Part shown: piece after piece, positions 358 to 35,489 of the stretch
How positions within the stretch are numbered: position 1 is the first letter of the stretch
How the letters are laid out: every line of letters begins with the position of its first letter
Assembly (NCBI GenBank): GCA_044222245.1
Contig: JBGANQ010000054.1
Coordinates: 813 to 64,812 of the forward strand
Length of the DNA: 64,000 bases
DNA from: Polyangia bacterium
GTDB taxonomy: Bacteria > Myxococcota_A > Polyangia > Palsa-1104 > JAEUJZ01
Reading direction: 5' to 3'
Made by a program: the position numbers and the translations under genes
The notes under the pieces: generated by a model
The model's input: only the letters and a program-made list of their open reading frames with translations
Database searches by the model: none
Told to the model about the DNA's origin: nothing

Positions 358-423
358 GGAGCTCTTTCCTCCTGCGCGACCCGCGCCGTTTGGGCACCGG
401 TCGGCTGACCTTGAGCTGGCGGC

Positions 424-789: not shown

Positions 790-928
790 AGGTGCAGAGT
801 AGCCGATTCGCCGCCCCGGTGAAATAGAAGGACCGGGCCGGGGTATAGTGCCGGCCCCTGCGCATCCGCGAACATCTATAAGCGCTCAGATATAAGCGCT
901 CCGAGCCAAAGGACCCCAACGAGGAACC

Positions 929-3292: not shown

Positions 3293-3369
3293 GCGTCCCG
3301 CCCCCGACTTTCTCTTTCCATAGATCTCCGGCGCCGCTGTCGCGTTTAGCAGGGGCAAGGAGAGAGACA

Positions 3370-4383
3370 ATGAAGACCCTACTGGCGACGGCCTTGCTGA
3401 CCTTGGCGCTTCCTGCTCTGCCGGTCCTGCCAATCCTTGGTGAGGGGCAGGCGGACGCCGCCCCGCTGCGCAGCCAGAACGGCACCTACGAGCTGCAGGT
3501 CCTTACAAACGGCGCCCCGGCCCAGACCTACTGGCACAGCGGCGAGAGCTACGTGCTCGGCTATAGTGGTGAGCGCTACACCCTGCGCATCGTCAACAAC
3601 AGCGGCCAGCGCATCGAGGCGGTGGTCTCGGTCGACGGGCGCGACGTGGTCGATGGCAAGGCGGCCGACTATCGCACAAAGCGCGGCTACCTGGTGCCGG
3701 CGTACGGCTCGGTCGAGGTCGATGGCTGGCGGCTGTCGCGCGGGCAGGCGGCGGCGTTCCGCTTCTCTTCGGTGGGCGAGTCCTACGCGGCGCGCACCGG
3801 CTCGGCCCGCGAGGTCGGGGTGATCGGGGTCGCGGTCTTCCCCGAGCGCTATAACCCGCCGCCGCGGCCGCTGTACGTGCCGCGCTACGACTACCGCCGC
3901 GGGGACGACTACTATGGCCCGCTCGGCGGGGCGGCCGACAAGGCCAAGGACGAGGCGGAGTACAGCGGCGGGGCCGCGGGGCCGCCGCCGCCGGCTGATT
4001 CGGCCCCTCGCTCGGCAGCGCCTTCCCCGCCCGCCGGCGAGAGCGTGGCGCAGTCCAAGAAGGCCGCCCGCGGCGACAGCGCCCTGGCCGAGCCCGACTA
4101 CTCCCAGCGGTCCAGCCGCCGCCCCGGCCTCGGCACGGCTTTCGGCGAGCGCGTCAACTCGCCGATCCAGGAGGTCTCGTTCGTGCGCGCCAGTGCCACC
4201 TCGCCCGCCGCGGTGCTCGGGGTGCGCTACAACGACCGCGACGGCCTGCTCGCCATGGGCGTCAACGTCGATGGCGACGGCTCGTCGGTCGACGACTCGT
4301 ACGCCCGGCGCACCGCCCAGCCGTTCCCGGTCCCCGAGCGGCGCTACGCCACCCCCCCGCCGGGCTGGGACTATCGCTACTAG
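3370..4383 (+). CDS. Secreted hypothetical protein
   Basis: Signal peptide MKTLLATALLTLALPALPVLP, a globular N-domain and a low-complexity Pro/Ala C-terminal half. Confidence 0.7.
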   Translation: MKTLLATALLTLALPALPVLPILGEGQADAAPLRSQNGTYELQVLTNGAPAQTYWHSGESYVLGYSGERYTLRIVNNSGQRIEAVVSVDGRDVVDGKAADYRTKRGYLVPAYGSVEVDGWRLSRGQAAAFRFSSVGESYAARTGSAREVGVIGVAVFPERYNPPPRPLYVPRYDYRRGDDYYGPLGGAADKAKDEAEYSGGAAGPPPPADSAPRSAAPSPPAGESVAQSKKAARGDSALAEPDYSQRSSRRPGLGTAFGERVNSPIQEVSFVRASATSPAAVLGVRYNDRDGLLAMGVNVDGDGSSVDDSYARRTAQPFPVPERRYATPPPGWDYRY

Positions 4384-5522
4384 ACCGCGCCGCGACCAGC
4401 TGCCGGCGCCGGCTTGACCGGGGCGCGGCTCTGCCCCCGACTCTTTGCCAGACCATACTGCAGCGTCGACTGGATGATCCGCGTTCCCAGCCGCTGGCCG
4501 ATCTCGTCGGCGCCCGGCAGCCGCTCGCGCACCGCCTGCTGCGCCTGCCCGAGCGCCCGCCACAGCGCCGGCGCCGCCCGCCACAGCGGCGCCCGCGGCA
4601 CCCCCATCGCATCGGCCAGCCTCTCCCCGAGCAGCACCCGGCAGACCGCGTACAGCACCCCCATCGGCAGAAACAGCGGCGGCTGCCACGCCATCTCGGC
4701 AAACAGCGCGGTGAGCAGGGCATGGCTGTCGGCGTCCGGCCGGTGCTGGCGGCGGCTGAGCACCGCGTACAGCGCCTCCTCCGCGGCGCACGACTCGGTA
4801 AGCAGGCGCTCGTCGATGCCCAGCACGTAGCCGCCGTAGCGCCAGGCGTGGTGGATCGAGTCCCGCTCCGCCGGCGTCAGCGCCACCCCGAGCCGCTGCA
4901 GGCTGCGCGCATACACCAGGCTGAACATGACCAGCGTGCTGCCGTTGTCCTCCTGGTTCACCGGCACCCCCCAGCGCGGGTCCCAGTCGCTGCGCCGCTG
5001 CACCATCCGGCGGACGCGGGCGTGCATGAGCCGCAGGTTCAGCAGCACCCGGTGGGCGTGGGTGCCCGGCCGCGGGCCGCCGGAGCTCGCCAGCACATAA
5101 AGAAAGTCCGCCGTCTCGTAGATGCGGCGGCGGGTCGAGCGCTGCAGATCGCCGCTGCGCACCAGCACCTTGGCCGCCAGCGCCGCTGAGTACGACTCGG
5201 CGAGGCTGCCGCACAGAAGGGCCAGGCCGCCGGCCACCGGGTGGCTGAGCCCGATGCGATAGCCGGCGAGCATGCGCGGAAACGACACCCAGGCCGGCAC
5301 CGCATACGCCTGGCCGATGAGCTCGCGACAGGCCCCGGCCGTCGCCGCCGCCCGCCGGCTCACCGCGGCCACCAGATCGCCTCCCATATCTGGGCGAGCT
5401 GAACTATCGGGGCCCGCCGTCTGCGCCAGCTCGAGCAGCGCGGCGTCGGCCAGCGGGTCGCCGACCAGCCGCAGCTGGTCGAGCAGCGAGTCCGGCCAGC
5501 GCGCAGAGTCCTTGTTCTCCAT
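4380..5522 (-). CDS. DUF2236/MpaB-like oxygenase-family protein (tentative)
   Basis: 380-aa ORF of normal composition. Blocks such as LNLRLMHARVRRMV and WGVPVNQED resemble DUF2236 from memory. Confidence 0.55.
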   Translation of the reverse strand: MENKDSARWPDSLLDQLRLVGDPLADAALLELAQTAGPDSSARPDMGGDLVAAVSRRAAATAGACRELIGQAYAVPAWVSFPRMLAGYRIGLSHPVAGGLALLCGSLAESYSAALAAKVLVRSGDLQRSTRRRIYETADFLYVLASSGGPRPGTHAHRVLLNLRLMHARVRRMVQRRSDWDPRWGVPVNQEDNGSTLVMFSLVYARSLQRLGVALTPAERDSIHHAWRYGGYVLGIDERLLTESCAAEEALYAVLSRRQHRPDADSHALLTALFAEMAWQPPLFLPMGVLYAVCRVLLGERLADAMGVPRAPLWRAAPALWRALGQAQQAVRERLPGADEIGQRLGTRIIQSTLQYGLAKSRGQSRAPVKPAPAAGRGAV

Positions 5523-5576
5523 GCCTTGGATGCTAGACGCGTAGCCGGCCGCCCGCCAAGGGCCACCGCAGCGCGG

Positions 5577-6575
5577 TCAGAAAGCGCCCAGGCCGTCCAG
5601 CTGACCGTCCAGGCGATCGGCCAGCTCTTCCAGCGCCGCGCGCTCGAACACCGGGCGGAACAGGTAGGGCAGGTGCAGCTGCGGCTCGGGCAGCTCGGCG
5701 CGCAGGCGGGCGACGTGCGAGTCGTTGAGCTGGGCGCGCTGCCGCTGCAGCCGCGCCGCCGCCAGCACCGGACCGAGCACCGCGTCGCCGCTGGCCGCCG
5801 GCGAGGCCGACAGCTCATCCAGGGCGATCGCCGACATGCCGGTGCCAAAGCGCGGCGGGTAGAGCCGGTTGACCGCCACCGGACCGACCGCGATGCCAAG
5901 CTCGCGCAGCCCGTGGGCGAGCTGCAGCGTCTCGGTCACCGGCAGGTCCTCGGCCAGGGTGACCAGCACCGCGCGGCAGCGCAGCGGATCGGTGAGCAGC
6001 TGCCGGCAGTCGCGCGCCGGCCCGGTGAGCGGCCCCTCGGGCACCGTGTCGAGGATGACCTTGGGCACGCGCAAGAGCGTCAGCGCGTGGCCGGTCGCCG
6101 GGCCGTCCAGGATGACCAGATCGAAGCGCGGCCGCCCGCCGTGCTGCTCGGTCGTGTGGTACCAAGCCTTGCCGAGCATCGAGTAGTCAAGCAGCCCCGG
6201 CACCGCGCGCAGGAACGCCCGCACCACGTCGCGCTCAAAGACCTGCTTATAAAGAAAGGCCGAGCGCAGCACCATGATGCCGTACTCGCGCAGGGCGGCC
6301 TCGGGGGTCATGTTGACCGCCCACAGGTTGTCGCTGACCGGCTGAATCTCGGCGAAGCTCTTGCGCGCCCCGAGCACCCCGGCCAGCCGATCCTTGCTCT
6401 TGGTCTGCGCCAGCAGCACCCGCTTGCCGCGCCGCGCCGCCAGCACCGCCAGGGCCGCGGCGACCGTGGTCCGCCCGACGCCGCCCTTGCCAGAGATGAC
6501 AAGCAGCCGCCGGTCAAGGAGGCCCCGGGGCTCGCCGCGGACCCAGAGCCCGCTCTGCCCAGGCTGGCTCACCAA
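5577..6575 (-). CDS. ArsA/Get3-type P-loop ATPase
   Basis: Deviant Walker A ISGKGGVGRTTVAAALA, and DGPATGHALTLL resembling the ArsA signature block. Confidence 0.8.
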   Translation of the reverse strand: MVSQPGQSGLWVRGEPRGLLDRRLLVISGKGGVGRTTVAAALAVLAARRGKRVLLAQTKSKDRLAGVLGARKSFAEIQPVSDNLWAVNMTPEAALREYGIMVLRSAFLYKQVFERDVVRAFLRAVPGLLDYSMLGKAWYHTTEQHGGRPRFDLVILDGPATGHALTLLRVPKVILDTVPEGPLTGPARDCRQLLTDPLRCRAVLVTLAEDLPVTETLQLAHGLRELGIAVGPVAVNRLYPPRFGTGMSAIALDELSASPAASGDAVLGPVLAAARLQRQRAQLNDSHVARLRAELPEPQLHLPYLFRPVFERAALEELADRLDGQLDGLGAF

Positions 6576-6921
6576 AGCTCCAAGGTTGTCCGCAGGCTCA
6601 CGGAAGCAAGGTACGTATGCCCTGTCTCGCTGTCAACGAAGCGGCCACCAGGCCGCCCCCCGCGAAAAAGAGCAGCGACGGCAACCAAGCGTGCGCGGGC
6701 CCGGGTCGCCAGGCCGCGCGCCTCCTGCCGCCGCCTATCTTGGCCGCTGGCCTGCGATTTTACCGCTTGCGGGCTAGGTAAGCTGGGTAGTAGGTGGTAA
6801 GATCGTCGCCCACGCTCACTGCCTGGCTTGTTAACGTGCAGCTCACGTTGGGCACCATTTCCCCAGCCCAGAGCCGGGAGCCGAGAGGCGAAGTGGCCCG
6901 ATTCAGCAAGGAGACCTGGGT

Positions 6922-8457
<1,536 letters not shown>

Positions 8458-26211: not shown

Positions 26212-27801
26212 TCAGCGGGCCGGCACCGGATCGATCGGCGTGCGCGGGAAGTCGGCGGCGCCCTGGACGCGCGCTTCGATGGCCGCCATCACTGCCAGCG
26301 CCACGTCCTCGCGGTAGGGGCGGGCGGCGACCTGGACGCCCACCGGCAGGCCGGCGGCGCCGCGCATCACCTGGGCGCAGCGGCGAGACAGCGAGTCCAG
26401 GGGGCGCGGACCGTCCCAGCTCGTCTCGGCCGCCTGCACCCGGGTGACCGGCACGATGCCGGCGGGGAAGTTGAGCATGACGTAGCGGAACATGTAGCTC
26501 AGCGTCAGCGTCAGATCGCCCGAGGTCCCAAGCTGCATCGCCGGCAGGACGTGCGGCGGCAGCACCACCGCGTCGAGCTCCTGGGTGTTCCAGGCGTCCA
26601 GCTCGAGGTGACAGAGCTCGGTGCGGCGGGCGGTGAGCCGCCACAGCTCGGCCACCGGCTTGCTCCCCAGGGTGGCCAAGAGCTCGGCCAGGCGGTGCTC
26701 GCCGCGATAGGTGAGCAGGCGCCCGAGCGCGGTGCGCGCCGGCGCCGGGAGCAGCGCCCCATACAGGGCCGGGCGCAGCTGCGCGCACACCGGGTCCTGC
26801 GCCAGCTGGGCGCGCAGGGTGGCGCCGCCATCGCTGGAGATCGCCGACAGCCACAGGTAGATAAGCTCGGCGGCCGCGGGCGGCTGATAGGGGAGCACCG
26901 TCGCCCCGGCGTCGCGCAGCGCCTGCGCTGCGGTGCGCACCGCGCGCTGGATGGTCGGCGCCGGGGTCAAAAACCCGTCGTCTTCGCAGACGCCGATGCG
27001 CAGCCCGGACAGCGGCACCGCCGCCGGGTCGCCCACGGGCAGCGGCACCACCACTGGATCGCGGCGGCTCTGCCGGCGAGGATCCAGGGCGGCCATCACC
27101 AGCCCGAGGTCGCGCACGCTGCGCGCGAGCGGTCCCATCTGCGGCTTGACCACCTCCTGCCCGGGGATGCCGCCGCGCATGCCGCGCGCCGACCAGCGAT
27201 TCAGCGTCGGCTTGAGCCCGCACACGCCGCAGAAGTGGGCCGGGATGCGGATCGAGCCGCCGATGTCAGTGCCGATCCCAAGCGGCGTCTGCCCCGACGC
27301 CAGCGCCGCGCCCTCGCCGCCGCTGGAGCCGCCCGGGCTGCGCCCGCCGTCAAAGGGGTTGCGGGTGACGCCATAGACGGCGTTATCCGACTCCTGCACG
27401 AGTAGCAGCTGCGGCACGTTGGTCTTGCCAAGGACGATGGCGCCGGCGGCGCGCAGCTCGGCGACCACCAGTGCATCGGCCGCGGCGGGACGGTAGAGCC
27501 GACTGCGCAGCCCGAGGGTGGTGTCGGTGCCGCGGACGTCGATGTTGTCCTTGATGGTCAGCGGCAGCCCGTGCAGCGGCCCGAGCTCACCTGCGGCCGA
27601 CCGCCGCCGCGCCGCATCGGCGGCCTGCGCCTCGGCGCGCGCCTGAGCGTCCAGGCGCACGGTGAAGGCACCGAGCTGCCCGTCGACACGCTGGCGGCGG
27701 GCGATCAGCGCCTCGACAATCTCGACCGACGAGACCTCGCGGCGAGCGAGCGCGGCAAGCAGCGCGGTCGCGTCCAGCTCGTGCAGCGGCGCAGATATCA
27801 T
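26212..27801 (-). CDS. Amidase-signature amidase
   Basis: GGSSGGEGAALA and GTDIGGSIRIPA signature. Confidence 0.9.
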   Translation of the reverse strand: MISAPLHELDATALLAALARREVSSVEIVEALIARRQRVDGQLGAFTVRLDAQARAEAQAADAARRRSAAGELGPLHGLPLTIKDNIDVRGTDTTLGLRSRLYRPAAADALVVAELRAAGAIVLGKTNVPQLLLVQESDNAVYGVTRNPFDGGRSPGGSSGGEGAALASGQTPLGIGTDIGGSIRIPAHFCGVCGLKPTLNRWSARGMRGGIPGQEVVKPQMGPLARSVRDLGLVMAALDPRRQSRRDPVVVPLPVGDPAAVPLSGLRIGVCEDDGFLTPAPTIQRAVRTAAQALRDAGATVLPYQPPAAAELIYLWLSAISSDGGATLRAQLAQDPVCAQLRPALYGALLPAPARTALGRLLTYRGEHRLAELLATLGSKPVAELWRLTARRTELCHLELDAWNTQELDAVVLPPHVLPAMQLGTSGDLTLTLSYMFRYVMLNFPAGIVPVTRVQAAETSWDGPRPLDSLSRRCAQVMRGAAGLPVGVQVAARPYREDVALAVMAAIEARVQGAADFPRTPIDPVPAR

Positions 27802-27890
27802 GGCCGCAGCTTACCAGCCCGCGGCGGCCCTGCCTTCCCATTAATATTATATAGACATTACGCCAGCCTGGCCCCCTCCGGGTTCTCCGC

Positions 27891-27919
27891 TTGACGCCGC
27901 TGGTCTTTGCTATGATTAT
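27891..27919 (+). promoter_or_regulatory. Sigma70-like promoter for ncRNA unit 1
   Basis: TTGACG (27891-96), a 17-nt spacer, then GATTAT (27914-19). G27927, the first base of the RNA closing helix, lies 7 nt downstream. Confidence 0.5.
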
Positions 27920-27926
27920 ATTTTTC

Positions 27927-28054
27927 GTGTCCGGCCGCGCAGGCCCTACAAGCTATCTGGTTCAACTCCAGAATGTTCGCACTTGCGAATATCGCCGTGG
28001 TGGCAAAATCGATTCACTCGATCAAATGGCTTGCGCACTCGGACACAGATTTTG
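27927..28054 (+). ncRNA. Structured RNA unit 1: Y-RNA/YrlA-like candidate with a tRNA-like T-arm
   Basis: - Closing helices: 27927-33 pairs with 28040-46 (7 bp), then a GCC/ACT internal loop, then 27937-45 pairs with 28028-36 (9 bp including one G-U).
- Internal hairpins: TCTGG-TTCAACT-CCAGA (27956-72, a T-loop-like UUCRANY), an 8-bp hairpin at 27973-92, GCC-GTGGT-GGC, and ATCGA-TTCAC-TCGAT.
- A short U tract follows at 28050-53. Confidence 0.65.
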
Positions 28055-28149
28055 AAATAACCGACGAAGGCGCGGTGCTCACCGCCGCTCGCAGCCACCC
28101 TCCGGGAGGCGCCCTTCGCCGGACTCGGTGACGAGCGTAGATTCGTTTT

Positions 28150-28245
28150 GCGCCCGGCCGAAGAGGCCCTACAAGCGTGCCCTAACGGGTACACCGATTT
28201 TTGGTAAATCGACAATGGCTTCTTCACTCGGGCGCAATTTTTTTT
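28150..28245 (+). ncRNA. Structured RNA unit 2: smaller paralogue of unit 1 (YrlB-like candidate)
   Basis: It has the same architecture as unit 1. 28150-56 pairs with 28229-35, there is a GCC/ACT loop, and 28160-68 pairs with 28217-25 with the G-U at the same place. There are two 6-bp hairpins (28177-92 and 28195-211), and the RNA ends in AAT8. Five base pairs differ from unit 1 by compensatory changes. Confidence 0.65.
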
Positions 28246-28296
28246 GAGCACAAGTCGTCCAGCTAATTAGCAATTTATTTCAGGTGGTTAGACGAA

Positions 28297-30096
28297 ATGA
28301 CCAGCACCACCACCCGCCCGCTGCCAGAGGCCCAGCTCGGGCCGGCCGAGAAGCTGCTTGATCTGGTCCTCAGCTCCGGGGCCCACCTGTGGCACAACCG
28401 CCTGGGCCAGGAGGTCGCCGACAAGTGGCAGCCGCTGATCCTGCCGCGGGCGCGCCCCGGCCGCCTGCGGTCGATCCCGCGCGGGGCGCTGCCGCCGGGG
28501 CTGTTCGTCAAGGCGGCGGTGGCGCTGTACCGGCGGCTCATCGAGATCTACAAGCTCAACAGCGAGCTGTTCGCCCACTTTGCCAGCTACGCGATCCTGG
28601 AGACCGACTGGCGCGATCTGAAGGTCGCCTGCGCGGCGCTGCTCCTGGTGCAGCCGCGGGCCGGGCTGCCGGTGCGCGGCGAAGGCGGGGCGGTCGAGTT
28701 CCACGATGACGACTACCGCGCCCTGGGCGAGGCGATGCTGCTGTTCCACCAGCAGAAGTCGACCCGCGCGATGTCGCCCAAGGCGGTGCTGCGGGTCGCT
28801 GAGCTCCTGGAGACGGCGGAGATCGCGCAGCTCAACCGCCAGGCCGGCTTTGCCGGGGCGGCCTCGCGCAAGGCGCCGCTTGGCCGCTGGCCGCAGGCGG
28901 CGCGCGCCTGGCTGCGCCTGCGCGAGCGTAACCTGCCGATGCTGCAGGGGCTGGTCAAGGCGGGCTACAAGGAGACGATCAAGAAGCTGGCGCGCAAGTG
29001 CGGCTACAAGCCCGACAGCCAGGTCTTCTTCGAGGTGCTCGGCTGGAAGCAGAAGCAGACGGCGGCCGGCCACCGCGAGGTCGGCCTGAGCGGCCTTTTG
29101 CTGCGCAAGAGCGAGCGCTTCGACGGCTTCAGCGAGCAGGAGGTCTGCGAGTACATCGTCTCGGAGAAGCTGACCTACAAGGAGGTCGTCGGCCGGCTGC
29201 CGCGCGAGCTGGGCCTGACGCCGGCGATCATGGTCGCGCTTTTGCCTTCGCTGTCCGACACCGACCTGCGGCTGCTCACCCCGACCCTGGAGGGGCTCGG
29301 GCTGCTCGCCGACGCCGAGATCCGCCGCCGCTGGGAGCGCGCCATCGCCAGCGCCACTGACCAGCGCAGCCTCAACATCGCCAAGAACGTGCGCAGCCAG
29401 GTGCTGCGCGACAAGCTGGGCGAGGCGGCCGACAACGCCGCCCGCAAGGCGGTGGCGGCGGCGACCGCGGACGCCGACCTGCGGGTGATGTTCCTCATCG
29501 ACAAGTCGGGCTCGATGCAAGGGGCGATCGAGCAGTCTAAAGAGGCGCTGTCGCGCATCCTGGCCGGCTTCCCCGCCGCCAAGCTGCACATCGCCACCTT
29601 CGACACGATGGGCACCGTGCTTGTCCCCAAGGCGGCGAGCCGGGCGGCGGTGCAGCACATGCTGCAAAGCGTCCAGGCCTCGGGCGGGACGATCCACGGC
29701 GCGGCGCTGCGCGCCCTGCACCGCAGCGGCGTACGCATCCCCGACGACGCCCTGCTGGTGGTGATCGTCGTCGGCGATGAGGACGGCGAGGACCCCACCA
29801 AGTTTGCCAGCACGTTCGCCGAGCTCGGGTACAAGCCGGCGGCGCTGGGCCTCATCGTCAGCGTGCGCTCGCGGCGGGGCAGCACCGTCAAGACCGCGGC
29901 CGGCGTGCTGCAGGTGCCGTTCTCCGAGGTGCAGGTCGACCAGTTTGACGACCCCTATCAGGTCCCGCGGGTGCTGCGGGCGATGCTCGATGCCGCCACG
30001 CCCGCGGGCGCCCCGGCGGCCAAGCCGCGCACGAGCTGGGTCGAGAAGGTGATGGCGACGCCGCTATTGCGCAAGCCGGCCGCCGCCCGTCCGTAG
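28297..30096 (+). CDS. Ro60/TROVE-like helical domain plus C-terminal vWA (MIDAS) protein
   Basis: - vWA domain: VMFLIDKSGSM...ATFD...ASGGTIHG...LLVVIVVGDEDGE.
- N-terminal ~390 aa are helical. PLGRWPQAARAWL...LVKAGYKETIKKLARKCGYKPDSQVFFEVLGWK resembles the Ro60 block WGRALRKAIADWY...[21 protein letters not shown]...ITKGW from memory.
- The domain order and length match Rsr/Ro60. Confidence 0.6.
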   Translation: MTSTTTRPLPEAQLGPAEKLLDLVLSSGAHLWHNRLGQEVADKWQPLILPRARPGRLRSIPRGALPPGLFVKAAVALYRRLIEIYKLNSELFAHFASYAILETDWRDLKVACAALLLVQPRAGLPVRGEGGAVEFHDDDYRALGEAMLLFHQQKSTRAMSPKAVLRVAELLETAEIAQLNRQAGFAGAASRKAPLGRWPQAARAWLRLRERNLPMLQGLVKAGYKETIKKLARKCGYKPDSQVFFEVLGWKQKQTAAGHREVGLSGLLLRKSERFDGFSEQEVCEYIVSEKLTYKEVVGRLPRELGLTPAIMVALLPSLSDTDLRLLTPTLEGLGLLADAEIRRRWERAIASATDQRSLNIAKNVRSQVLRDKLGEAADNAARKAVAAATADADLRVMFLIDKSGSMQGAIEQSKEALSRILAGFPAAKLHIATFDTMGTVLVPKAASRAAVQHMLQSVQASGGTIHGAALRALHRSGVRIPDDALLVVIVVGDEDGEDPTKFASTFAELGYKPAALGLIVSVRSRRGSTVKTAAGVLQVPFSEVQVDQFDDPYQVPRVLRAMLDAATPAGAPAAKPRTSWVEKVMATPLLRKPAAARP

Positions 30097-30101
30097 CGCG
30101 C

Positions 30102-31217
30102 ATGGACTTCCGCCGCTTCCTCAACAGCCCCGGGGCCGGCTCGCCCACCACTGCCGACGGCGGCGCGGGGAGCGATGAGCAGGTGCTGCCGTACTTCGGC
30201 GGGCCCTATGTCGACTCGCGCGAGCGGCGGCTGCGGCTGCGCCTGGACGGCGGCGAAAGGCCGCGGCCGGGCTTTTACCGCTTCGCGGTGGGCGGCCGCA
30301 GCGCGACCCTGCGCGGGCCGGCCGAGGCTCCGCCGCTAGAGGACCTCAAGGCGGTGCGCGGCCACCTGCTCGGGGCGCGGCTGGTCCTGCCAAGCGGCGC
30401 CGTCGAGCCGCTGTTCTGCCTGCCCGAGGAGGTCCCGCCGCGCTTCGCCCCGATCCTCGCCCGGCGGTGGCCGACCGGCGAGCTGCTCTACGACCAGCTC
30501 GAGTTCGAAGGGGACGCCGAAGAGGCGGTGCGGCGGGCCTTGCAGGATGAGCAGCCGCTCGCCGCGCTCAAGGCGGTGCCGGCCTCGCTGCGCGCCGCGT
30601 TTGCCTATACCGTGGGCGAGCGCGCGGCGCAGCGCCTGGCGGTGCCGGTGAGTCCGCTGGAGCTATTGCCCGCCATTGCCGCCATCGCCGAGCGCGGCGT
30701 CCCCGCCGCTACCGAGGCGCTGCTGGCCCTTCAGGAGGAGCGCCGCGCCTACGCGCGCAGCCGCGAGCAAGAGCTGCTGGCCGCCACCGCCGCGGCGCAG
30801 GCGGCGGCGCGCGAGCAGCAGCGCGCGCAGGCGGCGGCGGCGCGCCTCCCCGAGCACGGCCGCGCCGCGCGCCCCGGCCGCGTGCCGCCCGACCGCGGTC
30901 GCCCCGCCCCGCTGGCCGCCGAAGAGCGCGCCGAGCACGCCCTGCACGCCGCCGGGGCCACGCTCCTTGATACGCGGTCGCTCGGCCGCGATCAGCTGGA
31001 GGTGATCTATCGGTTCCACGGCCAGCGCTTCATCTCGATCGTCCAGGCCTCGACGCTGCAGGTGATCGACGCCGGGGTCTGCCTGGCCGGCGCCGACAGC
31101 CTGGTCACGCTGGAGAGCCTGCCCTCGGTGCTCAAGGAGGCGATCGAGACCCGGCGCCTGGTCATCACCCGCCGCGCACCCGGCGACGCTGACTACTATG
31201 AGGATTTCGATGACTGA
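30102..31217 (+). CDS. Hypothetical 371-aa protein (possible E2-like C-terminal domain)
   Basis: It starts 5 nt after the upstream stop. It has an N-domain, an Ala/Gln/Arg coiled-coil linker, and a C-domain reading LEVIYRFHGQRFISIVQASTLQVIDAGVCLAGADSLVTLESLPSVLKEAI. Confidence 0.7.
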   Translation: MDFRRFLNSPGAGSPTTADGGAGSDEQVLPYFGGPYVDSRERRLRLRLDGGERPRPGFYRFAVGGRSATLRGPAEAPPLEDLKAVRGHLLGARLVLPSGAVEPLFCLPEEVPPRFAPILARRWPTGELLYDQLEFEGDAEEAVRRALQDEQPLAALKAVPASLRAAFAYTVGERAAQRLAVPVSPLELLPAIAAIAERGVPAATEALLALQEERRAYARSREQELLAATAAAQAAAREQQRAQAAAARLPEHGRAARPGRVPPDRGRPAPLAAEERAEHALHAAGATLLDTRSLGRDQLEVIYRFHGQRFISIVQASTLQVIDAGVCLAGADSLVTLESLPSVLKEAIETRRLVITRRAPGDADYYEDFDD

Positions 31218-31704
31218 GAGAGCCGAGCGACCCGGCGGCGGTGCGCTGCGCGAGGTGTGCCTGCTTATCGGCCGCGGCGACGTCATCCTGTGGTCGGATG
31301 CGTCGGCAAGTCCGGTGTGGCTGCCCGACTCGCGCGCCCGCTGGGAGGCAATCTGGCACCACCGCGCCGAGCTGACCGAGATCGTCCACAGTCACCCGGT
31401 GGGCCCGCTCGCCTTCTCGGCCGAGGATGAGACGACGATGGCGGCGCTAGGCGCGGCGCTCGGCGCCGGCCTGGGGTTTGCGGTGGTCGCCCCCGGCGGC
31501 ATGATCCGGCGCCGCTACCCGCCGCGCGCTGGCGATGGGCTCGCGGCGCCGGCGCTTGACACCCAGCTTTTGCCGGCGGCCGAGCCGTGGTGGGCGGCCC
31601 TTTTGCGCCTGGCCTCGGGCATGCGCCCGGAGCCCGAGCCGCCAGACGCGGACCTTGAAGCTGCCTCAGAGCTGCCTGCTTCGCCCCCAAAGACGGAGGA
31701 CTAG
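31210..31704 (+). CDS. JAMM/MPN+ (JAB) metallopeptidase
   Basis: An upstream Glu (ALREV) plus HSHPVGPLAFSAED fit E...HxHx7Sx2D exactly. The ATG at 31210 overlaps the upstream stop by 8 nt. An alternative ATG is at 31198. Confidence 0.8.
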   Translation: MTERAERPGGGALREVCLLIGRGDVILWSDASASPVWLPDSRARWEAIWHHRAELTEIVHSHPVGPLAFSAEDETTMAALGAALGAGLGFAVVAPGGMIRRRYPPRAGDGLAAPALDTQLLPAAEPWWAALLRLASGMRPEPEPPDADLEAASELPASPPKTED

Positions 31705-31891: not shown

Positions 31892-33001
31892 ATGGGCGAC
31901 CTGGTACGACGGGGGACGAGCTTTTATGTTCGCTATCGCGACGTCGATGGCGTGCGGCGCATGCGCGCCTCGCACCAGCCGACTCGCGAGCTGGCGCGGC
32001 GCTTCCTGGTCGAGATCGAGGCGCGGATCGCCCGCGGCAAGATCGGCATCCCCGAGCCGGCGGCGCCCGCGCCTACGGTGGCCGAGCTGGTCGGCCGCTT
32101 CCTGGCCGAGTATCGCCAGCCGCGGATCAAGGATCTGCAGAAGTATCGCCGGTTTGCCACCAGCAACCTGCGACGGGCGCTGCCGCTGTTGGGCGCGCTG
32201 CGAGCCGACGCCGTAACCGCCGCCGACCTCGATCGCCTGCGCGACCAGCTGGCGCGCCGCTGCGCCCCCGGCTCGGCCGGGCTGACCTTCACGTTCCTCA
32301 AGACCGCCTTCGCGTGGGCGGCGCGCGGCGGCCTGATCGCCCGCAACCCGCTTTACCGGGTGCCGCTGCCGCCGCCGCGCGAGCCCGACATCGAGTACCT
32401 GAGCGCCGACGAGGTGACGGCGCTGCTCGCCGCCGCCGATCGGCGGGCAGCAGCCGGTGGGGTGGCCGAGCGCCTGCTGCGCGGGGCGGTGTACCTGGCG
32501 CTGCACGCCGGCCTGCGCAAGGGCGAGCTGTTCGGGCTGCGCTGGCGCGACCTCGACCTGGAGTCGCGGCGCCTGACGGTGCGTAGCAGCTTCGCCACCA
32601 CCCCCAAGGGCGGCCGGGCCCGTCACCTGCGCATCCCCGCCGTCGTCGTCCCGGTGCTGCTAGAGCTCTGCGGAAAGTGTCCGCAGACGCCGCAGGGGCT
32701 GGTGTTTCCCCGCCGCCACCGCGGCCAGTGGGGGATGTGCGCGACGACCGGCGCGATGCTCGGGCTGCCGGCGCTGCTCGCCGCCGCCGGCTGCCGGCCC
32801 GTGGGCCGCTGCTGGCACGCGCTGCGCCACACCTTCGCGTCGCACTACATCATGCAGGGCGGGAACATCCTGGCGCTGCAGAAGATCCTCGGGCACAGCG
32901 ATCTCCGCATGACCACCATCTACGCCCACCTCGCCCCGGACTTTCTCGGGGCGGAGATGGATCGCCTCAGGTTTCCGCCGCCGGACAAGCTGCCGATCTA
33001 G
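31892..33001 (+). CDS. Tyrosine recombinase/integrase (IE-1)
   Basis: ALHAGLRKGELFGLRW (catalytic R), WHALRHTFASH (HxxR) and LGHSDLRMTTIYAHL (Y). It is a clear paralogue of the integrase at 42040-43146; both begin MGDLVR. Confidence 0.9.
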   Translation: MGDLVRRGTSFYVRYRDVDGVRRMRASHQPTRELARRFLVEIEARIARGKIGIPEPAAPAPTVAELVGRFLAEYRQPRIKDLQKYRRFATSNLRRALPLLGALRADAVTAADLDRLRDQLARRCAPGSAGLTFTFLKTAFAWAARGGLIARNPLYRVPLPPPREPDIEYLSADEVTALLAAADRRAAAGGVAERLLRGAVYLALHAGLRKGELFGLRWRDLDLESRRLTVRSSFATTPKGGRARHLRIPAVVVPVLLELCGKCPQTPQGLVFPRRHRGQWGMCATTGAMLGLPALLAAAGCRPVGRCWHALRHTFASHYIMQGGNILALQKILGHSDLRMTTIYAHLAPDFLGAEMDRLRFPPPDKLPI

Positions 33002-33019
33002 CCGCCGGCGCGCCCGCCG

Positions 33020-33784
33020 CTAGAACCGCCCGCCGACCAGGACGCCGCTGCCGCCGCTCAGGGTGAGGGGGCTTATCGTCAGGCTGTTCTTGGCGTAGAT
33101 CGCCACCCGGGTGTGGGTGGCGGCGCCGACGATCATGAGCGCCAGCCCGCTGGCCTGGACCAGGCCGTCGATCGCGAGCATGGTGCCGCCGAGCTGGCTG
33201 CCGCTGCCCGACAGGTAGCCGAGCTCGAGCCAGGGCCCGATGAGCGGGATGTACAGCGGCCACAGCGCCGAGGCGGTGCCAAACGACGGCCCCGAAGCGG
33301 TGATCGAGTTGCGGACCGGCATGCCGTTTTTGTAGTACAGCGAGTCGGCATAGCTGGCGGTGAGCAGCGCCGTGAGCGACCACGACAGGCCAAGCACGGC
33401 GGCGCCGGCGATGATAAGCCGAGTGCGCGGCCGGGTGACGTAGCGCACCGCGGCGGGCCGGGCCGGGATGAGCGTCGGCTGCGTCCCGAGGTAGGGCTGC
33501 GCCGGATAGTAGGGCTGCGCCGGATAGTAGGGCTGCGCCGGATAGTAGGGCTGACCCGGGTAGCTCGGGGCCGGGTAGCTCGGGGTCGGGTAGTAGGGCT
33601 GGGCCGACTCGGGCGGCGGTGGGTATGCCGGCCCTGCTGGCGGCTGCGCCGGCTCGGTCGGCGGCGACGGCGCGGACTGGGTTACGTACGTGCCGGAGTC
33701 CTGCTGCGCCTCGGCGGAGCTGCAGAGGCTCACTCCCAATCCGACCAGCGTCAGGCTGACTACGATGGCTTTTCGCGCTTGCAT
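33020..33784 (-). CDS. Secreted/membrane protein with a Pro/Tyr-rich repeat region
   Basis: Signal peptide, (PYYPAQ)x3-4 encoded by an 18-bp tandem repeat (~33492-33550), and hydrophobic C-terminal segments. Confidence 0.65.
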   Translation of the reverse strand: MQARKAIVVSLTLVGLGVSLCSSAEAQQDSGTYVTQSAPSPPTEPAQPPAGPAYPPPPESAQPYYPTPSYPAPSYPGQPYYPAQPYYPAQPYYPAQPYLGTQPTLIPARPAAVRYVTRPRTRLIIAGAAVLGLSWSLTALLTASYADSLYYKNGMPVRNSITASGPSFGTASALWPLYIPLIGPWLELGYLSGSGSQLGGTMLAIDGLVQASGLALMIVGAATHTRVAIYAKNSLTISPLTLSGGSGVLVGGRF

Positions 33785-33957
33785 GGGGGGTCCTTGGTGG
33801 AAGTTTAAGGCGGCGCGCTGCGCAGTTTCAGTTTATTTATCGGCCGGCGCGCGATCCAGTGCTTGCCTTTTGTCCGCAAAGTGCAGATTGCTCCGGTGGC
33901 GGCGCGAGCAAAAACTTATAACCGCTGACAACTCAATCAAGTTATGAGCACTGCACC

Positions 33958-34479
33958 ATGACCTTTACCCTCCATGATACCGCCTACCGCACCGATACCC
34001 GGGAAGCCAAGGAGGCCATGTATGCCGACCTGCGCACGCAGCTGCAGGGCCTGCTGCACGGCGAGAGCGACTGGATCGCCAACACCGCCAACTTCAGCTC
34101 CTTGGTCTTTCACAGCGTCCCCGGGCTGAACTGGGCTGGCTTTTATTTCTTGAAGACCGCGGACGAGCTGGTGCTCGGCCCCTTCCAGGGCAAGCCGGCC
34201 TGCATCCGCATCCAGAAGGGCCGCGGCGTCTGCGGCTCGACCGTGGTAAAGCGAGCGCCGATCGTCGTGCCCGACGTGCACGCCTTCCCCGGTCACATCG
34301 CCTGCGACTCCAGCTCGCGCTCGGAGCTGGTGGTGCCCATATTCGCCCGCGGCGAGGTCGTCGGGGTGTTCGATCTGGACAGCCCGCTGCTGGGGCGGTT
34401 TGATGACACCGACGCGCAGGGGGTCCAGTCGCTCGTGCAGCTGCTGGAGCAGACGCTGACGGCGCCGACCAGCCCGTAG
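33958..34479 (+). CDS. msrC: GAF-domain free methionine-(R)-sulfoxide reductase
   Basis: NWAGFYF...LVLGPFQGKPACIRIQKGRGVCG...VPDVHAFPGHIACDSSSRSELVVPI matches the YebR/fRMsr family pattern. Confidence 0.8.
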   Translation: MTFTLHDTAYRTDTREAKEAMYADLRTQLQGLLHGESDWIANTANFSSLVFHSVPGLNWAGFYFLKTADELVLGPFQGKPACIRIQKGRGVCGSTVVKRAPIVVPDVHAFPGHIACDSSSRSELVVPIFARGEVVGVFDLDSPLLGRFDDTDAQGVQSLVQLLEQTLTAPTSP

Positions 34480-34631: not shown

Positions 34632-34648
34632 TTGTCCATCACCTACAA
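34632..34648 (+). repeat. Direct repeat (att core) of IE-1, right copy
   Basis: TTGtcCATCACCTACAA; see 31714-31730. Confidence 0.6.
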
Positions 34649-34913
34649 CGGCACCTCGGCCGACTACCCGCAGCCTATAGATGGCGAGCTCTCGGATCGC
34701 GAGCTGCGTCGCATCGGGGAGGAGCTTGTGCGCTCCGGCGACCTGCCCGGCCTGTGGCTCAAGGATCTGCCGCACCGGGTCTTTGAGCAGTTCGTGGTCG
34801 ATCGCATCCACTCGCCCAAGGGCGGCCTGCGGATCTACCTGCGGCCCAAGGTCCCGTTCGGGAACGGACCCGCGCGAGGGTCGTGGCGAGCGCCGCGGCC
34901 CCAGGGGCGCTAG
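34632..34913 (+). CDS. Small Ubl-like (beta-grasp candidate) protein, 3' part of the gene split by IE-1
   Basis: A TTG-initiated ORF. (L)SITYNGTSADYPQP...GGLRIYLRPKVPFG is followed by a 16-aa Arg/Pro tail. The stop is 3 nt before the E1-like ATG. Confidence 0.6.
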   Translation: MSITYNGTSADYPQPIDGELSDRELRRIGEELVRSGDLPGLWLKDLPHRVFEQFVVDRIHSPKGGLRIYLRPKVPFGNGPARGSWRAPRPQGR

Positions 34914-34916
34914 GCG

Positions 34917-35489
34917 ATGCGGCTCCTGTTCTGCGGGGTGGGGGCGCTCGGCTCGACCGCGGTCGTGTTGTGCCGCAGCCTGGGCGTCGAGCTGGCGCTT
35001 TGCGACTGCGACCGCGTGGAGACCAAGAACCTGCACGCCCAGGCGTTCGTCAAGCAGTCGCTGGGCAAGAACAAGGCCGAGGCGCTGAAGCTGCAGCTCG
35101 GGAACTTCTATGGCCTGAAGTGCGAGGCGTTCGGCGTGCGGCTGACCGCGACCAATGTGGACGCGCTGGCCCAGGGGGCGGACCTGCTCATCGACTGCTT
35201 TGACAACCAGGCGAGCCGCCAGCTGCTGGCCGACTACGCCCGCCGCACCGGCAAGCCGCTAGTGCACGCGGCGATGGCGGCCGATGGGCAGTTTGGCCTG
35301 GTGCGGTGGGACGAGCGCTTTGTCGCCGATGCCGAGGACCACGCCGGTCAGGCCACCTGCGAGGGAGGGGCGCACCTGCCGTTTATCGGGCTGCTCGCCG
35401 CGACCCTGGCGCGCGTCATTCAGGACTTTGTCCTGCACGGCCAGCGGCACGACTGCATGGTCGCGCTGCGCTCGGTGACCAGCCAGTAG
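34917..35489 (+). CDS. Minimal E1/ThiF/MoeB-like adenylation-domain protein (190 aa)
   Basis: LLFCGVGALGSTAVVLCRSLGVE-LALCDCDRVETKNL (Rossmann G-x-G-x-x-G plus D-x-D-x-V-E-x-x-N-L), GKNKAEAL, and LLIDCFDN (Mg-binding Asp). The usual NLxRQ Arg is Ala here (NLHAQ). Confidence 0.75.
   Translation: MRLLFCGVGALGSTAVVLCRSLGVELALCDCDRVETKNLHAQAFVKQSLGKNKAEALKLQLGNFYGLKCEAFGVRLTATNVDALAQGADLLIDCFDNQASRQLLADYARRTGKPLVHAAMAADGQFGLVRWDERFVADAEDHAGQATCEGGAHLPFIGLLAATLARVIQDFVLHGQRHDCMVALRSVTSQ

What the first reader, a model, noticed from the sequence alone, without database searches (positions are those of the whole stretch)
27891..28296. Two tandem structured RNAs with compensatory base changes (Y-RNA-like, one with a tRNA-like T-arm) upstream of a Ro60-like gene
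The AT-rich gap between the amidase and the vWA gene contains two paralogous units, 27927-28054 and 28150-28245.

- **Closing structure:** each unit is closed by a 7-bp helix, a symmetric 3x3 internal loop (GCC/ACU) and a 9-bp helix with a G-U at the same position.
- **Covariation:** five base pairs differ between the copies by double, pairing-preserving changes. The outer helix is GUGUCCG/CGGACAC versus GCGCCCG/CGGGCGC, and the inner helix is GCGC/GCGC versus GAAG/CUUC. The unpaired blocks AGGCCCUACAAGC, AAUGGCUU and CACUCGG are identical.
- **Unit 1:** contains GG-UUCAACU-CC (27956-72), which fits the tRNA T-loop consensus UUCRANY. It is followed by an 8-bp hairpin and a small GCC-GUGGU-GGC hairpin.
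- **Unit 2:** ends in U8.
- **Promoter:** a TTGACG-17-GATTAT promoter places the start at the first base of unit 1.

A long terminal helix with an internal loop plus a tRNA-like module is the known design of bacterial YrlA-type Y RNAs. Those RNAs are encoded next to rsr (Ro60).
Basis: partly seen in the sequence, partly recalled or inferred. Interest (0 to 1): 0.85.

Follow-up and report, generated by a model that had tools for sequence, protein, structure and literature searches.

The report
Y-RNA-like genes beside divergent Ro60-like protein
Two small structured RNA genes of the bacterial Y-RNA (YrlA/YrlB) type lie just upstream of a divergent Ro60-like protein gene, and this RNA-protein pair, conserved across Myxococcota, belongs to an operon that also encodes ubiquitin-like conjugation parts, which I did not find described in the papers I could search.

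Summary
Window 27927-28047 and 28150-28236 (+ strand) fold into the same closing module: an outer helix, a small internal loop and a 9-bp helix. The two copies differ by five compensatory pairs.

A covariance model built only from other genomes finds exactly these two sites in the 64-kb window (62.9 and 53.8 bits). About 28 such RNAs lie in 17 of 30 loci informative for upstream sequence, always on the strand of the same protein gene. The closing stem covaries: 10 of 17 pairs show double changes.

The longer relatives carry a permuted tRNA-like core (T arm, closed acceptor-like stem, D arm). They give significant but sub-threshold Rfam YrlA scores of 30-44 bits against a cutoff of 69. Unit 1 is a reduced YrlA-like form. 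Unit 2 is a short, YrlB-like form ending in U8.

The downstream 599-aa protein never hits Pfam TROVE. Its confident AlphaFold model nevertheless has only Ro60/TROVE structures as full-length neighbours.

The gene heads a conserved cassette: Ro60-like, an unknown ~350-aa protein, a JAMM peptidase, a Ubl-like protein ending in PFG, and an E1-like ThiF protein.

Verdict: a real Y-RNA/Ro60-type system and a new variant of a known kind. RNA-protein binding and function are inferred, not shown.

The parts
27891..27919 (+). Sigma-70-like promoter match, TTGACG-17-GATTAT. It would start transcription about 7 nt before unit 1.
   Evidence: Only promoter-like match in 27780-28320. The -35 box and the upstream AT-rich block are conserved in L001. 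This is a consensus match only; no transcript data exist.
27927..28047 (+). Unit 1: a reduced YrlA-like Y RNA of 121 nt. It has the closing stem module plus a trimmed tRNA-like core.
   Evidence: MFE -53.4 kcal/mol, z -5.5. Model R1, built from other loci only, scores 62.9 bits, E 5e-11; the minus strand scores 13 bits. 89% identical to L001, against 59% for the spacer.
27956..27972 (+). T-arm-like hairpin of unit 1: 5 bp, loop UUCAACU.
   Evidence: Aligns to the invariant GGUUCGAnUCC T arm of the long forms.
27973..27992 (+). Closed acceptor-stem-like hairpin of unit 1: 8 bp, loop ACUU.
   Evidence: Occupies the position of the 7-8 bp covarying acceptor-like stem of the long forms.
27994..28004 (+). 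Shortened D-arm-like hairpin, GCC-GUGGU-GGC. It keeps the GG of a D loop.
   Evidence: Aligns, with mismatches, to the D arm AGCCnAAnGGUAnGGCA of the long forms.
28008..28022 (+). Variable-arm-like hairpin of unit 1.
   Evidence: RNAfold. Its loop differs from L001 while the stem is kept.
28048..28149 (+). GC-rich spacer between the units, poorly conserved.
   Evidence: 59% identical to L001, against 89% and 98% for the units.
28150..28236 (+). Unit 2: a short, YrlB-like Y RNA. It has the same closing stem module with GCCGAAG on the 5' strand, two small hairpins (28177-28192, 28195-28211) and no tRNA-like core.
   Evidence: MFE -44.1 kcal/mol, z -6.1. R1 scores 53.8 bits, E 4e-9, using a local end in place of the tRNA-like core. 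98% identical to L001; one of the two differences lies in the stem of the first small hairpin (U to C) and keeps its pair, changing G-U to G-C.
28238..28245 (+). U8 run directly after the GC-rich closing helix of unit 2. Together they resemble an intrinsic terminator.
   Evidence: Sequence. Conserved in L001. In L011 and L016 a separate canonical terminator hairpin plus U run follows the RNA.
28297..30096 (+). 599-aa Ro60-like protein: an alpha-helical N-terminal region plus a C-terminal vWA domain with an intact MIDAS site (D402, S404, S406, T465, D494).
   Evidence: Pfam finds VWA only and no TROVE. The AF2 model has pLDDT 89 and pTM 0.83. The top 8 PDB hits are all Ro60/TROVE over 539-571 columns. 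The top BFVD hit is a phage 'Ro-like RNA binding protein'. hhalign against a TROVE profile gives probability 54%.
30102..31217 (+). Conserved partner of unknown function, 371 aa. It has an invariant Cys in a DAGxCL motif and a variable, low-complexity middle region.
   Evidence: Follows the vWA gene in most of the 30 loci. No Pfam, NCBIfam, PADLOC, PHROG or PDB match.
31198..31704 (+). JAB/JAMM metallopeptidase carrying the motif HSHPVGPLAFSAED.
   Evidence: Pfam Prok-JAB, E 1.7e-6. 57% identical to the gene at the same position in M. stipitatus. Found in that position in 27 of 30 loci.
31892..34479 (.). Inserted block splitting the cassette: a tyrosine integrase (31892-33001, +), a 254-aa ORF (33020-33784, -) and a GAF protein (33958-34479, +).
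   Evidence: Pfam. In L034, which has an identical vWA protein, the JAB gene is followed directly by the Ubl-like gene.
34632..34913 (+). Ubl-like small protein. Its C-terminal sequence RIYLRPKVPFG is conserved and is followed by a variable tail.
   Evidence: Alignment of 18 homologues. Located after the JAB gene in at least 14 loci. No Pfam hit.
34917..35489 (+). 190-aa ThiF/E1-like adenylating enzyme.
   Evidence: Pfam ThiF, E 1e-23. Matches PADLOC E1-E2 (CBASS Cap2-type) E1 domains at E 2.5e-13. Syntenic in at least 14 loci.

Best explanation
The gap holds two small non-coding RNA genes of the bacterial Y-RNA kind, transcribed on the + strand.

**Shown**
- Both RNAs share a conserved, covarying closing stem with an internal loop. 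The 5' strand of this stem carries the YrlA-type GNCGAA(N0-1)G motif in unit 2 (GCCGAAG).
- Unit 1 keeps a trimmed, circularly permuted tRNA-like core in the order T arm, closed acceptor-like stem, D arm, so it is YrlA-like.
- Unit 2 lacks that core, so it is YrlB-like.
- Relatives of both forms lie next to the orthologous gene in many genomes, always on the gene's strand.

**Inferred**
- Transcription starts at the TTGACG-17-GATTAT promoter.
- The RNAs are released by processing, by termination at the U8 run, or by both. Some read-through would feed the downstream operon.
- The closing stem docks on the downstream Ro60-like ring protein, as Y RNA stems dock on Ro60/Rsr.
- The distal module (tRNA-like in unit 1) recruits or gates a partner.
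- The resulting RNP works together with the co-operonic ~350-aa protein and the JAMM, Ubl-like and E1-like module. A role in handling damaged or misfolded RNA or tRNA under stress or phage attack is the most likely setting.
For: **RNA structure and family**
- Fold z-scores are -5.5 and -6.1, and the + strand folds better than the minus strand.
- Model R1, trained on 9 long forms from other loci, hits only these two window sites, at 62.9 and 53.8 bits. The minus strand scores 13 and 21 bits.
- About 28 units occur in 17 loci, all on the gene's strand, with 1-4 per locus.
- In the 22 units aligned for the closing stem, 92.4% of cells are paired and 10 of 17 pairs show double changes. None of 500 shuffles and none of the slid controls reach these values.
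- Two positions are G-U in 15 and 17 of 21 sequences. On the opposite strand these would be A-C, so the pairing works only on the + strand.
- In the long forms, the T arm, the 8-bp acceptor-like stem and the D arm all covary.
- Rfam YrlA hits L016, L018, L004 and L028 at 43.6, 37, 30.3 and 29.7 bits.
- The architecture matches published YrlA (PMC4201824; bioRxiv 10.1101/312249).
- Against L001, the units are 89% and 98% identical while the spacer is 59% identical.
- Terminator-like ends follow the RNAs.

**Protein**
- Ro60/TROVE structures are the only full-length structural neighbours.
- The MIDAS site is intact.
- The hhalign alignment to a TROVE profile is collinear.

**Precedent**
- Thermus phage phiLo has two Y-like RNAs directly upstream of its Ro60 gene, and they bind that protein (PMC12135203).
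Against: - Neither window unit reaches any Rfam family.
- Even the best relatives stay below the YrlA gathering score.
- No family member hits Pfam TROVE.
- The helical domain on its own shows no significant profile similarity to TROVE, E 0.13.
- Foldseek TM-scores are only 0.28-0.49.
- Thirteen of the 30 loci informative for upstream sequence have no such RNA within 4 kb, so the protein does not strictly need a neighbouring RNA gene.
- Unit 1 lacks the CGAA motif; it has GCCGCGC instead.
- There are no expression or binding data.
Confidence: 0.75

Rival explanations
1. The two units are cis-acting leader structures of the vWA operon mRNA, acting as an attenuator or riboswitch. Unit 2 plus the U8 run would be a regulated terminator. 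They would not be stand-alone RNAs.
For: - The units are on the same strand, 51 nt upstream of the start codon.
- No separate promoter-like site lies between U8 and the ATG.
- Unit 2 ends in a terminator-like stem plus U8.
Against: - Family members also lie 2.4 kb upstream of the gene (L013).
- One lies upstream of an unrelated phosphoesterase gene (L030 6806-6932).
- One lies downstream of the vWA gene (L023 6318-6460).
- They occur in arrays of up to four (L031).
- Many are followed by their own terminator.
- The tRNA-like core and the YrlA hits have no role in an attenuator.
- Thirteen loci express the same operon without them.
Confidence: 0.1
2. The units are a real, conserved structured RNA family that mimics tRNA but has nothing to do with the neighbouring protein. 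The vWA protein would not be an RNA-binding Ro60 relative. The RNAs would act through tRNA-binding factors alone.
For: - TROVE HMMs fail on the protein.
- The helical domain shows no significant profile similarity to TROVE.
- The RNA is absent from 13 loci.
Against: - Every one of about 28 RNAs found lies within 4 kb of this gene and on its strand. This holds across Myxococcota, two actinobacteria and one MAG labelled Rickettsiales.
- Ro60/TROVE structures are the only full-length fold neighbours.
- The short forms have no tRNA-like part yet keep the stem module.
Confidence: 0.1
3. The units are DNA-level elements, such as a duplicated operator or promoter palindrome, or decayed tRNA genes or an att site linked to the nearby integrase.
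For: - The arms are inverted-repeat-like.
- A T-arm-like sequence is present.
- A tyrosine integrase lies 3.6 kb downstream.
Against: - Conserved G-U pairs work only on the + strand.
- The model scores the + strand far above the minus strand.
- The T arm precedes the D arm, a permuted order that a tRNA remnant would not have.
- ARAGORN finds no tRNA in the window.
- The RNAs occur in loci without an integrase, and the integrase block is absent from L034.
Confidence: 0.03

Closest known systems
YrlA (Rfam RF02553), the tRNA-mimicking bacterial Y RNA of Salmonella Typhimurium, Mycobacterium smegmatis and more than 250 species (Chen et al. 2014, PMC4201824; Wang et al. 2018, bioRxiv 10.1101/312249)
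   Same: - A long stem formed by the 5' and 3' ends, with an internal loop and the GNCGAA(N0-1)G motif on the 5' strand.
- A distal permuted tRNA-like core in the order T arm, closed acceptor stem, D arm and an optional long variable arm.
- Encoded within 4 kb of, and on the same strand as, the ring-protein gene.
- Often present in several copies.
   Different: - Scores stay below the Rfam cutoff: 30-44 bits against 69 for the long relatives, and no hit for the window units.
- The stem module has its own invariant blocks (GGCCCUACAMGC and CACUCGG).
- Unit 1 has a shortened D arm.
- The partner protein is not a TROVE-HMM-positive Rsr.
- The operon partners are not rtcB or rtcA.
YrlB (Salmonella) and Yrn2 (Deinococcus), short Y RNAs lacking a tRNA-like module and encoded next to the longer Y RNA
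   Same: Unit 2 and the short forms in L004, L005, L007, L011, L013, L014, L020-L022 and L028 keep only the protein-binding-type stem plus small hairpins. They often sit beside a long form.
   Different: There is no sequence similarity beyond the stem motif. According to Chen et al. 2014, YrlB itself was found only in S. enterica serovars.
Thermus phage phiLo Ro60 with Yrl1 and Yrl2 (PMC12135203; PDB 9KOP, 9L5Y)
   Same: - Two Y-like RNAs sit directly upstream of the ring-protein gene.
- A CGAA motif lies in a stem-bulge-stem.
- 9KOP is the best PDB structural match to the window protein.
   Different: - The phiLo protein is deposited in PDB as a TROVE domain-containing protein.
- The phage has no Ubl, E1 or JAMM partners.
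Ro60/Rsr-Y RNA-PNPase (RYPER) of Deinococcus radiodurans and the rsr-yrlBA-rtcBA operon of Salmonella
   Same: Both have a ring-shaped helical-repeat plus vWA protein with adjacent Y RNA genes. The presumed logic is the same: the RNA tethers or gates the ring protein.
   Different: Here the conserved neighbours are an unknown ~350-aa protein, a JAMM peptidase, a Ubl-like protein and a minimal E1. No RtcB, RtcA or PNPase gene was seen in the neighbourhoods examined.
Bacterial ubiquitin-like conjugation operons: CBASS Cap2/Cap3, Bil, and Bub/6E (PMC11601596; bioRxiv 10.1101/2023.09.26.559546)
   Same: - An E1-like ThiF domain, whose best PADLOC matches are Cap2-type E1 domains.
- A JAMM peptidase.
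- A small protein with a conserved C-terminal Gly followed by a removable tail.
   Different: - No recognisable E2, and no DUF6527, cyclase or effector.
- The E1 is only 190 aa.
- The cassette is led by a Ro60-like vWA protein and Y-like RNAs, which none of those papers mention.

Membership tests
YrlA (Rfam RF02553) | Reaches the Rfam gathering score of 69 bits | tested here: not met
   The window has no hit at gathering score or at E<=10. The orthologous long forms score 43.6, 37, 30.3 and 29.7 bits, which is significant but below the cutoff.
YrlA (Rfam RF02553) | Closing stem formed by the 5' and 3' ends, with an internal loop and GNCGAA(N0-1)G on the 5' strand (Chen 2014) | tested here: met
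   The stem covaries. Unit 2 has GCCGAAG, L016 has UCCGAAG and L018 has AUCGAAG. Most other units have GCCGACG, and unit 1 has GCCGCGC, so the motif is only partly kept.
YrlA (Rfam RF02553) | Permuted tRNA-like core in the order T arm, closed acceptor stem, D arm | tested here: met
   Nine long forms have it, with covariation. Unit 1 has a reduced version. Unit 2 lacks it, so only unit 1 qualifies.
YrlA (Rfam RF02553) | Encoded within 4 kb of a Ro60 orthologue and on the same strand | tested here: inconclusive
   The position and strand rule holds for all of the roughly 28 units. The neighbouring gene, however, is Ro60-like by fold only and is not a TROVE-HMM orthologue.
YrlA (Rfam RF02553) | Binds Rsr/Ro60, and is modified by TruB and DusA | not testable with these tools
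   Needs biochemistry.
Ro60/Rsr (TROVE, Pfam PF05731 plus the vWA model PF25045) | Significant match to the TROVE HMM | tested here: not met
   None of 44 family members hits TROVE, even at E<=10. Bona fide Rsr proteins all carry PF05731 and PF25045.
Ro60/Rsr (TROVE, Pfam PF05731 plus the vWA model PF25045) | C-terminal vWA domain with a MIDAS site | tested here: met
   VWA_2 at E 2e-9, residues 397-519. The DxSxS, T and D residues are invariant or nearly so.
Ro60/Rsr (TROVE, Pfam PF05731 plus the vWA model PF25045) | Helical-repeat ring closed by the vWA domain (overall fold) | tested here: inconclusive
   The top 8 PDB hits and the top 6 BFVD hits are Ro60/TROVE proteins over about 540-630 columns, with E values from 1e-10 to 1e-6. 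TM-scores are only 0.28-0.54 and rmsd is 8-14 A.
Ro60/Rsr (TROVE, Pfam PF05731 plus the vWA model PF25045) | Profile-profile sequence homology to TROVE proteins | tested here: inconclusive
   hhalign of A3 against A4 gives probability 54%, E 1.3e-4 and 277 collinear columns reaching about 190 residues into the helical region. The helical domain alone gives E 0.13.
Bacterial Ubl-conjugation operons (Bil, Bub, CBASS type II) | E1, E2, Ubl and JAMM genes together in one operon | tested here: inconclusive
   The E1-like gene, the JAMM gene and a Ubl-like gene with a C-terminal PFG are present. No E2 was recognised; the ~350-aa protein with an invariant Cys is only a candidate.

The most novel reading that the evidence does not exclude
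The Y-like RNAs and the Ro60-like ring protein may be the RNA-sensing front end of an undescribed ubiquitin-like conjugation system made of a minimal E1, a Ubl ending in PFG, a JAMM peptidase and a Cys-bearing ~350-aa protein. In that reading, binding or displacement of the tRNA-mimic RNA, for example by damaged or foreign RNA, would control Ubl conjugation, or the RNP itself would be its target. This would be the first direct link between Ro60/Y-RNA biology and Ubl signalling in bacteria.
Probability: 0.35. Interest if true: 0.85.

Novelty: new variant of a known kind. Interest (0 to 1): 0.7.

Why it matters
- Bacterial Y RNAs were catalogued only next to proteins annotated as TROVE (PMC4201824). 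This family escapes both the TROVE HMM and the Rfam YrlA cutoff. A whole branch of Ro60/Y-RNA systems, common in cultivable Myxococcus, Archangium and Corallococcus, has therefore probably gone unannotated.
- What the tRNA-like domain of YrlA binds is an open question. A conserved operon that pairs such RNAs with JAMM, Ubl-like and E1-like genes names concrete candidate partners. These can be tested in genetically tractable myxobacteria.
- The family also offers natural long, short and RNA-less variants for comparison.

Tried and rejected
**Searches that found nothing useful**
- Rfam at gathering score on the whole window, and at E<=10 on the gap, gave only chance-level SAM_alpha and ToxI matches.
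- Pfam, NCBIfam, PADLOC and PDB sequence searches of the 599-aa protein found only generic vWA matches.
- hhalign against human Ro60 alone aligned only the vWA domain.
- The first AlphaFold model, built on a shallow alignment (pTM 0.50), was replaced by a better one.
- The viral-contig scan for relatives found none.
- The 371-aa partner gave nothing in PDB sequence or profile searches, Pfam (including all 20 homologues at E<=5) or PHROGs.
- The Metallophos gene that lies between two RNAs in M. stipitatus is not conserved elsewhere.

**Literature**
- Searches found no paper linking Myxococcus, Y RNA, Ro60, vWA and JAB/ThiF.
- Burroughs & Aravind 2016 (NAR, RNA repair systems) and Sim et al. 2020 (Annu Rev Microbiol) could not be opened. 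Prior description there cannot be excluded.

**Readings rejected**
- tRNA pseudogene or att site.
- DNA operator.
- Coding ORF. The 101-aa minus-strand ORF at 27946-28251 and the 52-aa ORF called by JGI both overlap the RNAs and the fast-diverging spacer.
Full report
**1. The observation**

The 495-nt gap between a minus-strand amidase gene (26212-27801) and a plus-strand 599-aa gene (28297-30096) contains two related units.

- As + strand RNA, 27927-28054 folds at -53.4 kcal/mol (z -5.5) and 28150-28245 at -44.1 kcal/mol (z -6.1). No shuffle out of 200 does as well. The reverse complements fold less well.
- Both units are closed by the same module. It consists of an outer helix (8 bp if a terminal G-U is counted), a 2x2 internal loop (CC/AC) and a 9-bp helix with a G-U at the same place.
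- The two copies differ at five pairs, each by a double, pairing-preserving change. The blocks GGCCCUACAAGC, AAUGGCUU and CACUCGG are identical.
- The gap is 56-60% GC against 70-78% in the flanking genes.

**2. The RNA family**

The downstream protein has more than 900 close homologues. They are 62-70% identical in Myxococcus, Archangium, Corallococcus, Pyxidicoccus and Polyangiaceae MAGs. It is also found in two Virgisporangium (Actinomycetota) genomes, and at 44% identity in a MAG labelled Rickettsiales.

I fetched 28 genomic loci and read the upstream regions. Many carry the same module: GCGCCCGGCCGAnnAGGCCCUACAMGC ... GGCUUnnUCACUCGGGCGC.

A register-exact alignment of the stem halves of 22 units (A2) gives these results:
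- 92.4% of cells form standard pairs.
- 10 of 17 pairs show changes on both sides.
- None of 500 shuffles reaches the observed values, and neither does any slid control.
- Two pairs are G-U in 15 and 17 of 21 sequences. On the other strand these would be A-C, so the structure belongs to the + strand transcript.

Nine longer units (133-158 nt) carry extra elements between the stem halves. These are an invariant GGUUCGAnUCC T arm, a 7-8 bp closed stem in which every pair covaries, a D arm (AGCCnAAnGGUAnGGCA) and usually a further hairpin. This permuted order (T arm, closed acceptor stem, D arm) is the published architecture of YrlA (PMC4201824; bioRxiv 10.1101/312249).

Rfam's YrlA model hits four of these long forms directly upstream of the gene, at 43.6, 37, 30.3 and 29.7 bits (E from 2e-6 to 0.02). 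These scores are significant but below the gathering score of 69.

**3. Independent test on the window**

I built covariance model R1 from the nine long forms of other loci, with no window or L001 sequence in the training set.

- In the 64-kb window it finds exactly two sites. These are 27927-28047 (62.9 bits, E 5e-11) and 28150-28236 (53.8 bits, E 4e-9). The minus strand scores 13 and 21 bits.
- Unit 1 aligns through the T arm, part of the acceptor-like stem and a shortened D arm. Unit 2 aligns only through the stem module, with a local end replacing the tRNA-like core.
- Across all loci there are about 28 units in 17 loci, with 1-4 per locus (four in tandem in L031). All lie on the strand of the gene. 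Usually they sit directly upstream. One lies 2.4 kb upstream (L013), one lies upstream of an unrelated phosphoesterase gene (L030) and one lies downstream of the gene inside the operon (L023).
- Thirteen loci have none within 4 kb.
- Against the closest relative (L001, protein 93% identical), unit 1 is 89% and unit 2 is 98% identical, while the spacer is 59% identical. One of unit 2's two differences lies in the stem of its first small hairpin and turns a G-U pair into G-C.
- Several RNAs are followed by canonical terminators (L011, L016).

**4. The protein**

Sequence searches see only the vWA domain.
- Pfam, NCBIfam, PADLOC and PDB sequence searches find a C-terminal vWA domain (residues 397-519) with an intact MIDAS site.
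- None of 44 diverse family members hits Pfam TROVE, even at E<=10. True Rsr proteins all carry PF05731 and PF25045.

Structure prediction points to Ro60.
- An AlphaFold model built on a diverse alignment is confident (pLDDT 89.3, pTM 0.83).
- Its eight best PDB matches are all Ro60/TROVE structures (9KOP, 2I91, 1YVP, 9L5Y, 1YVR). They align over 539-571 columns at E from 1.6e-8 to 9e-7. Every other match covers only the vWA domain.
- In BFVD the best match is a phage 'Ro-like RNA binding protein', and a 'TROVE domain-containing protein' is sixth.
- TM-scores are modest, 0.28-0.54.

Profile-profile comparison is moderate.
- hhalign of the family profile against a 36-sequence Ro60/Rsr profile gives a collinear 277-column alignment reaching about 190 residues into the helical region. 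Probability is 54% and E is 1.3e-4. I checked my recalled human sequence against PDB.
- The helical domain alone is collinear but not significant, E 0.13.

I therefore call the protein Ro60-like by architecture. It is not a demonstrated TROVE orthologue.

**5. The operon**

- The vWA gene is followed by a ~350-aa protein of unknown function in most loci. This is window 30102-31217, with an invariant Cys in a DAGxCL motif. It matches no family or solved structure.
- A JAMM peptidase follows in 27 of 30 loci. This is window 31198-31704, with the motif HSHPxGxxxFSxxD.
- In at least 14 loci, two further genes follow. One is an ~83-aa protein whose conserved C-terminus RIYLRPKVPFG is followed by a variable tail of 0 to about 70 residues, the signature of a Ubl precursor. 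The other is a 190-aa ThiF/E1-like protein, whose best PADLOC matches are the E1 domains of CBASS Cap2.
- In the window this cassette is split. An integrase, a 254-aa ORF and a GAF gene occupy 31892-34479. The Ubl-like gene (34632-34913) and the E1-like gene (34917-35489) follow. In L034, which has an identical vWA protein, the JAMM gene abuts the Ubl-like gene.
- No RtcB, RtcA or PNPase gene appears in the neighbourhoods I inspected.

**6. Mechanism**

Shown:
- Two conserved, strand-specific, covarying RNA structures exist.
- They belong to a family whose long members have YrlA architecture.
- They are tightly linked to one protein family whose only full-length structural neighbours are Ro60/TROVE proteins.

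Inferred:
- By analogy with Ro60-Y RNA complexes (PMC4201824; PMC12135203), the closing stem is the docking site for the ring protein.
- The distal module engages another factor. That module is tRNA-like in unit 1 and made of small hairpins in unit 2.
- Transcription starts at the promoter match and mostly ends at U8, with read-through supplying the operon.
- Operon conservation suggests that the RNP acts with the JAMM, Ubl-like and E1-like module. I found this combination in no paper I could search.

**7. Rivals**

- A cis-acting leader or attenuator is contradicted by the variable positions, the arrays, the separate terminators and the tRNA-like core.
- A DNA operator or tRNA remnant is contradicted by the G-U asymmetry, the strand-specific scores, the permuted arm order and the absence of any tRNA call.
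- An RNA family unrelated to the protein is contradicted by the strict co-location and co-orientation across phyla.

**8. Verdict**

The system is a new variant of the Ro60/Y-RNA kind.
- The RNAs are a divergent YrlA/YrlB-like subfamily below the Rfam threshold.
- The protein is a TROVE-HMM-negative Ro60-like family.
- The operon partners are new.

Two reviews that might describe this system could not be opened, so prior description is not excluded.

Noticed in passing
window 31892-34479: A tyrosine integrase, a 254-aa minus-strand ORF and a GAF-domain gene sit between the JAMM gene and the Ubl-like and E1-like genes. They split a cassette that is contiguous in many other genomes. The Ubl-like ORF here starts with TTG, and its N-terminus differs from that in L034 (LSITYNG against MATLNITYNG).
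   Followed up: partly
window 34632-35489; L031 11096-11932: An ~83-aa protein has an invariant C-terminal RIYLRPKVPFG followed by a variable tail (Ubl-precursor-like). It is followed by a minimal 190-aa ThiF/E1-like protein, and together with a JAMM peptidase they follow the Ro60-like gene in at least 14 loci. No E2 was recognised. The ~350-aa protein with an invariant Cys is a candidate.
   Followed up: partly
L029 (phage Rctr197k, KX853510.1) 67-3896 and 3980-5929: A 197-kb phage encodes a 37%-identical homologue of the Ro60-like protein. The gene lies immediately after an array of about 30 tRNA genes and is followed by a homologue of the ~350-aa partner. Model R1 gave no hit there apart from overlaps with the annotated tRNA genes.
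   Followed up: partly
L004 2123-2428 and 8093-9633: A Polyangiaceae MAG has clusters of tRNA genes on both sides of its cassette, which itself carries three Y-like RNAs. An HNH endonuclease gene lies upstream in L004 and L031.
   Followed up: no
L030 (Myxococcus stipitatus) 6806-7839: Two YrlA-like RNAs flank a PPP-family metallophosphoesterase gene (6960-7667) just upstream of the Ro60-like gene. An endonuclease V gene lies downstream on the other strand. The phosphoesterase is not conserved in the other loci.
   Followed up: partly
L005, L006, L007, L021, L024 (Archangium), about 60-130 nt upstream of the gene: A conserved element, CGTCAGGAAC...CGTC(G)TCC, precedes the RNA where an RNA is present. 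In L006 and L024, which lack the RNA, it directly precedes the gene. It may be the operon promoter, which would imply that the RNA is cut out of the 5' leader.
   Followed up: no
window 27838-27890: An AT-rich block, AATATTATATAGACATTACGC, upstream of the -35 box is almost identical in L001, although nearby sequence diverges. It may be an UP element or an operator.
   Followed up: no
L033 8608-8766 and L034 6104-6262 (equivalent to about window 27974-28132): Public gene calls place a 52-aa ORF over the 3' half of unit 1 and the spacer. It is probably a spurious call over the RNA genes.
   Followed up: no
L015 about 3600-3950 and L028 about 3850-3960: Long runs of imperfect short tandem repeats lie directly upstream of the Ro60-like gene in two MAGs. 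They are GCGTCTGCG or CGCACACGC-like in L015 and CCGACxCCGAC-like in L028.
   Followed up: no
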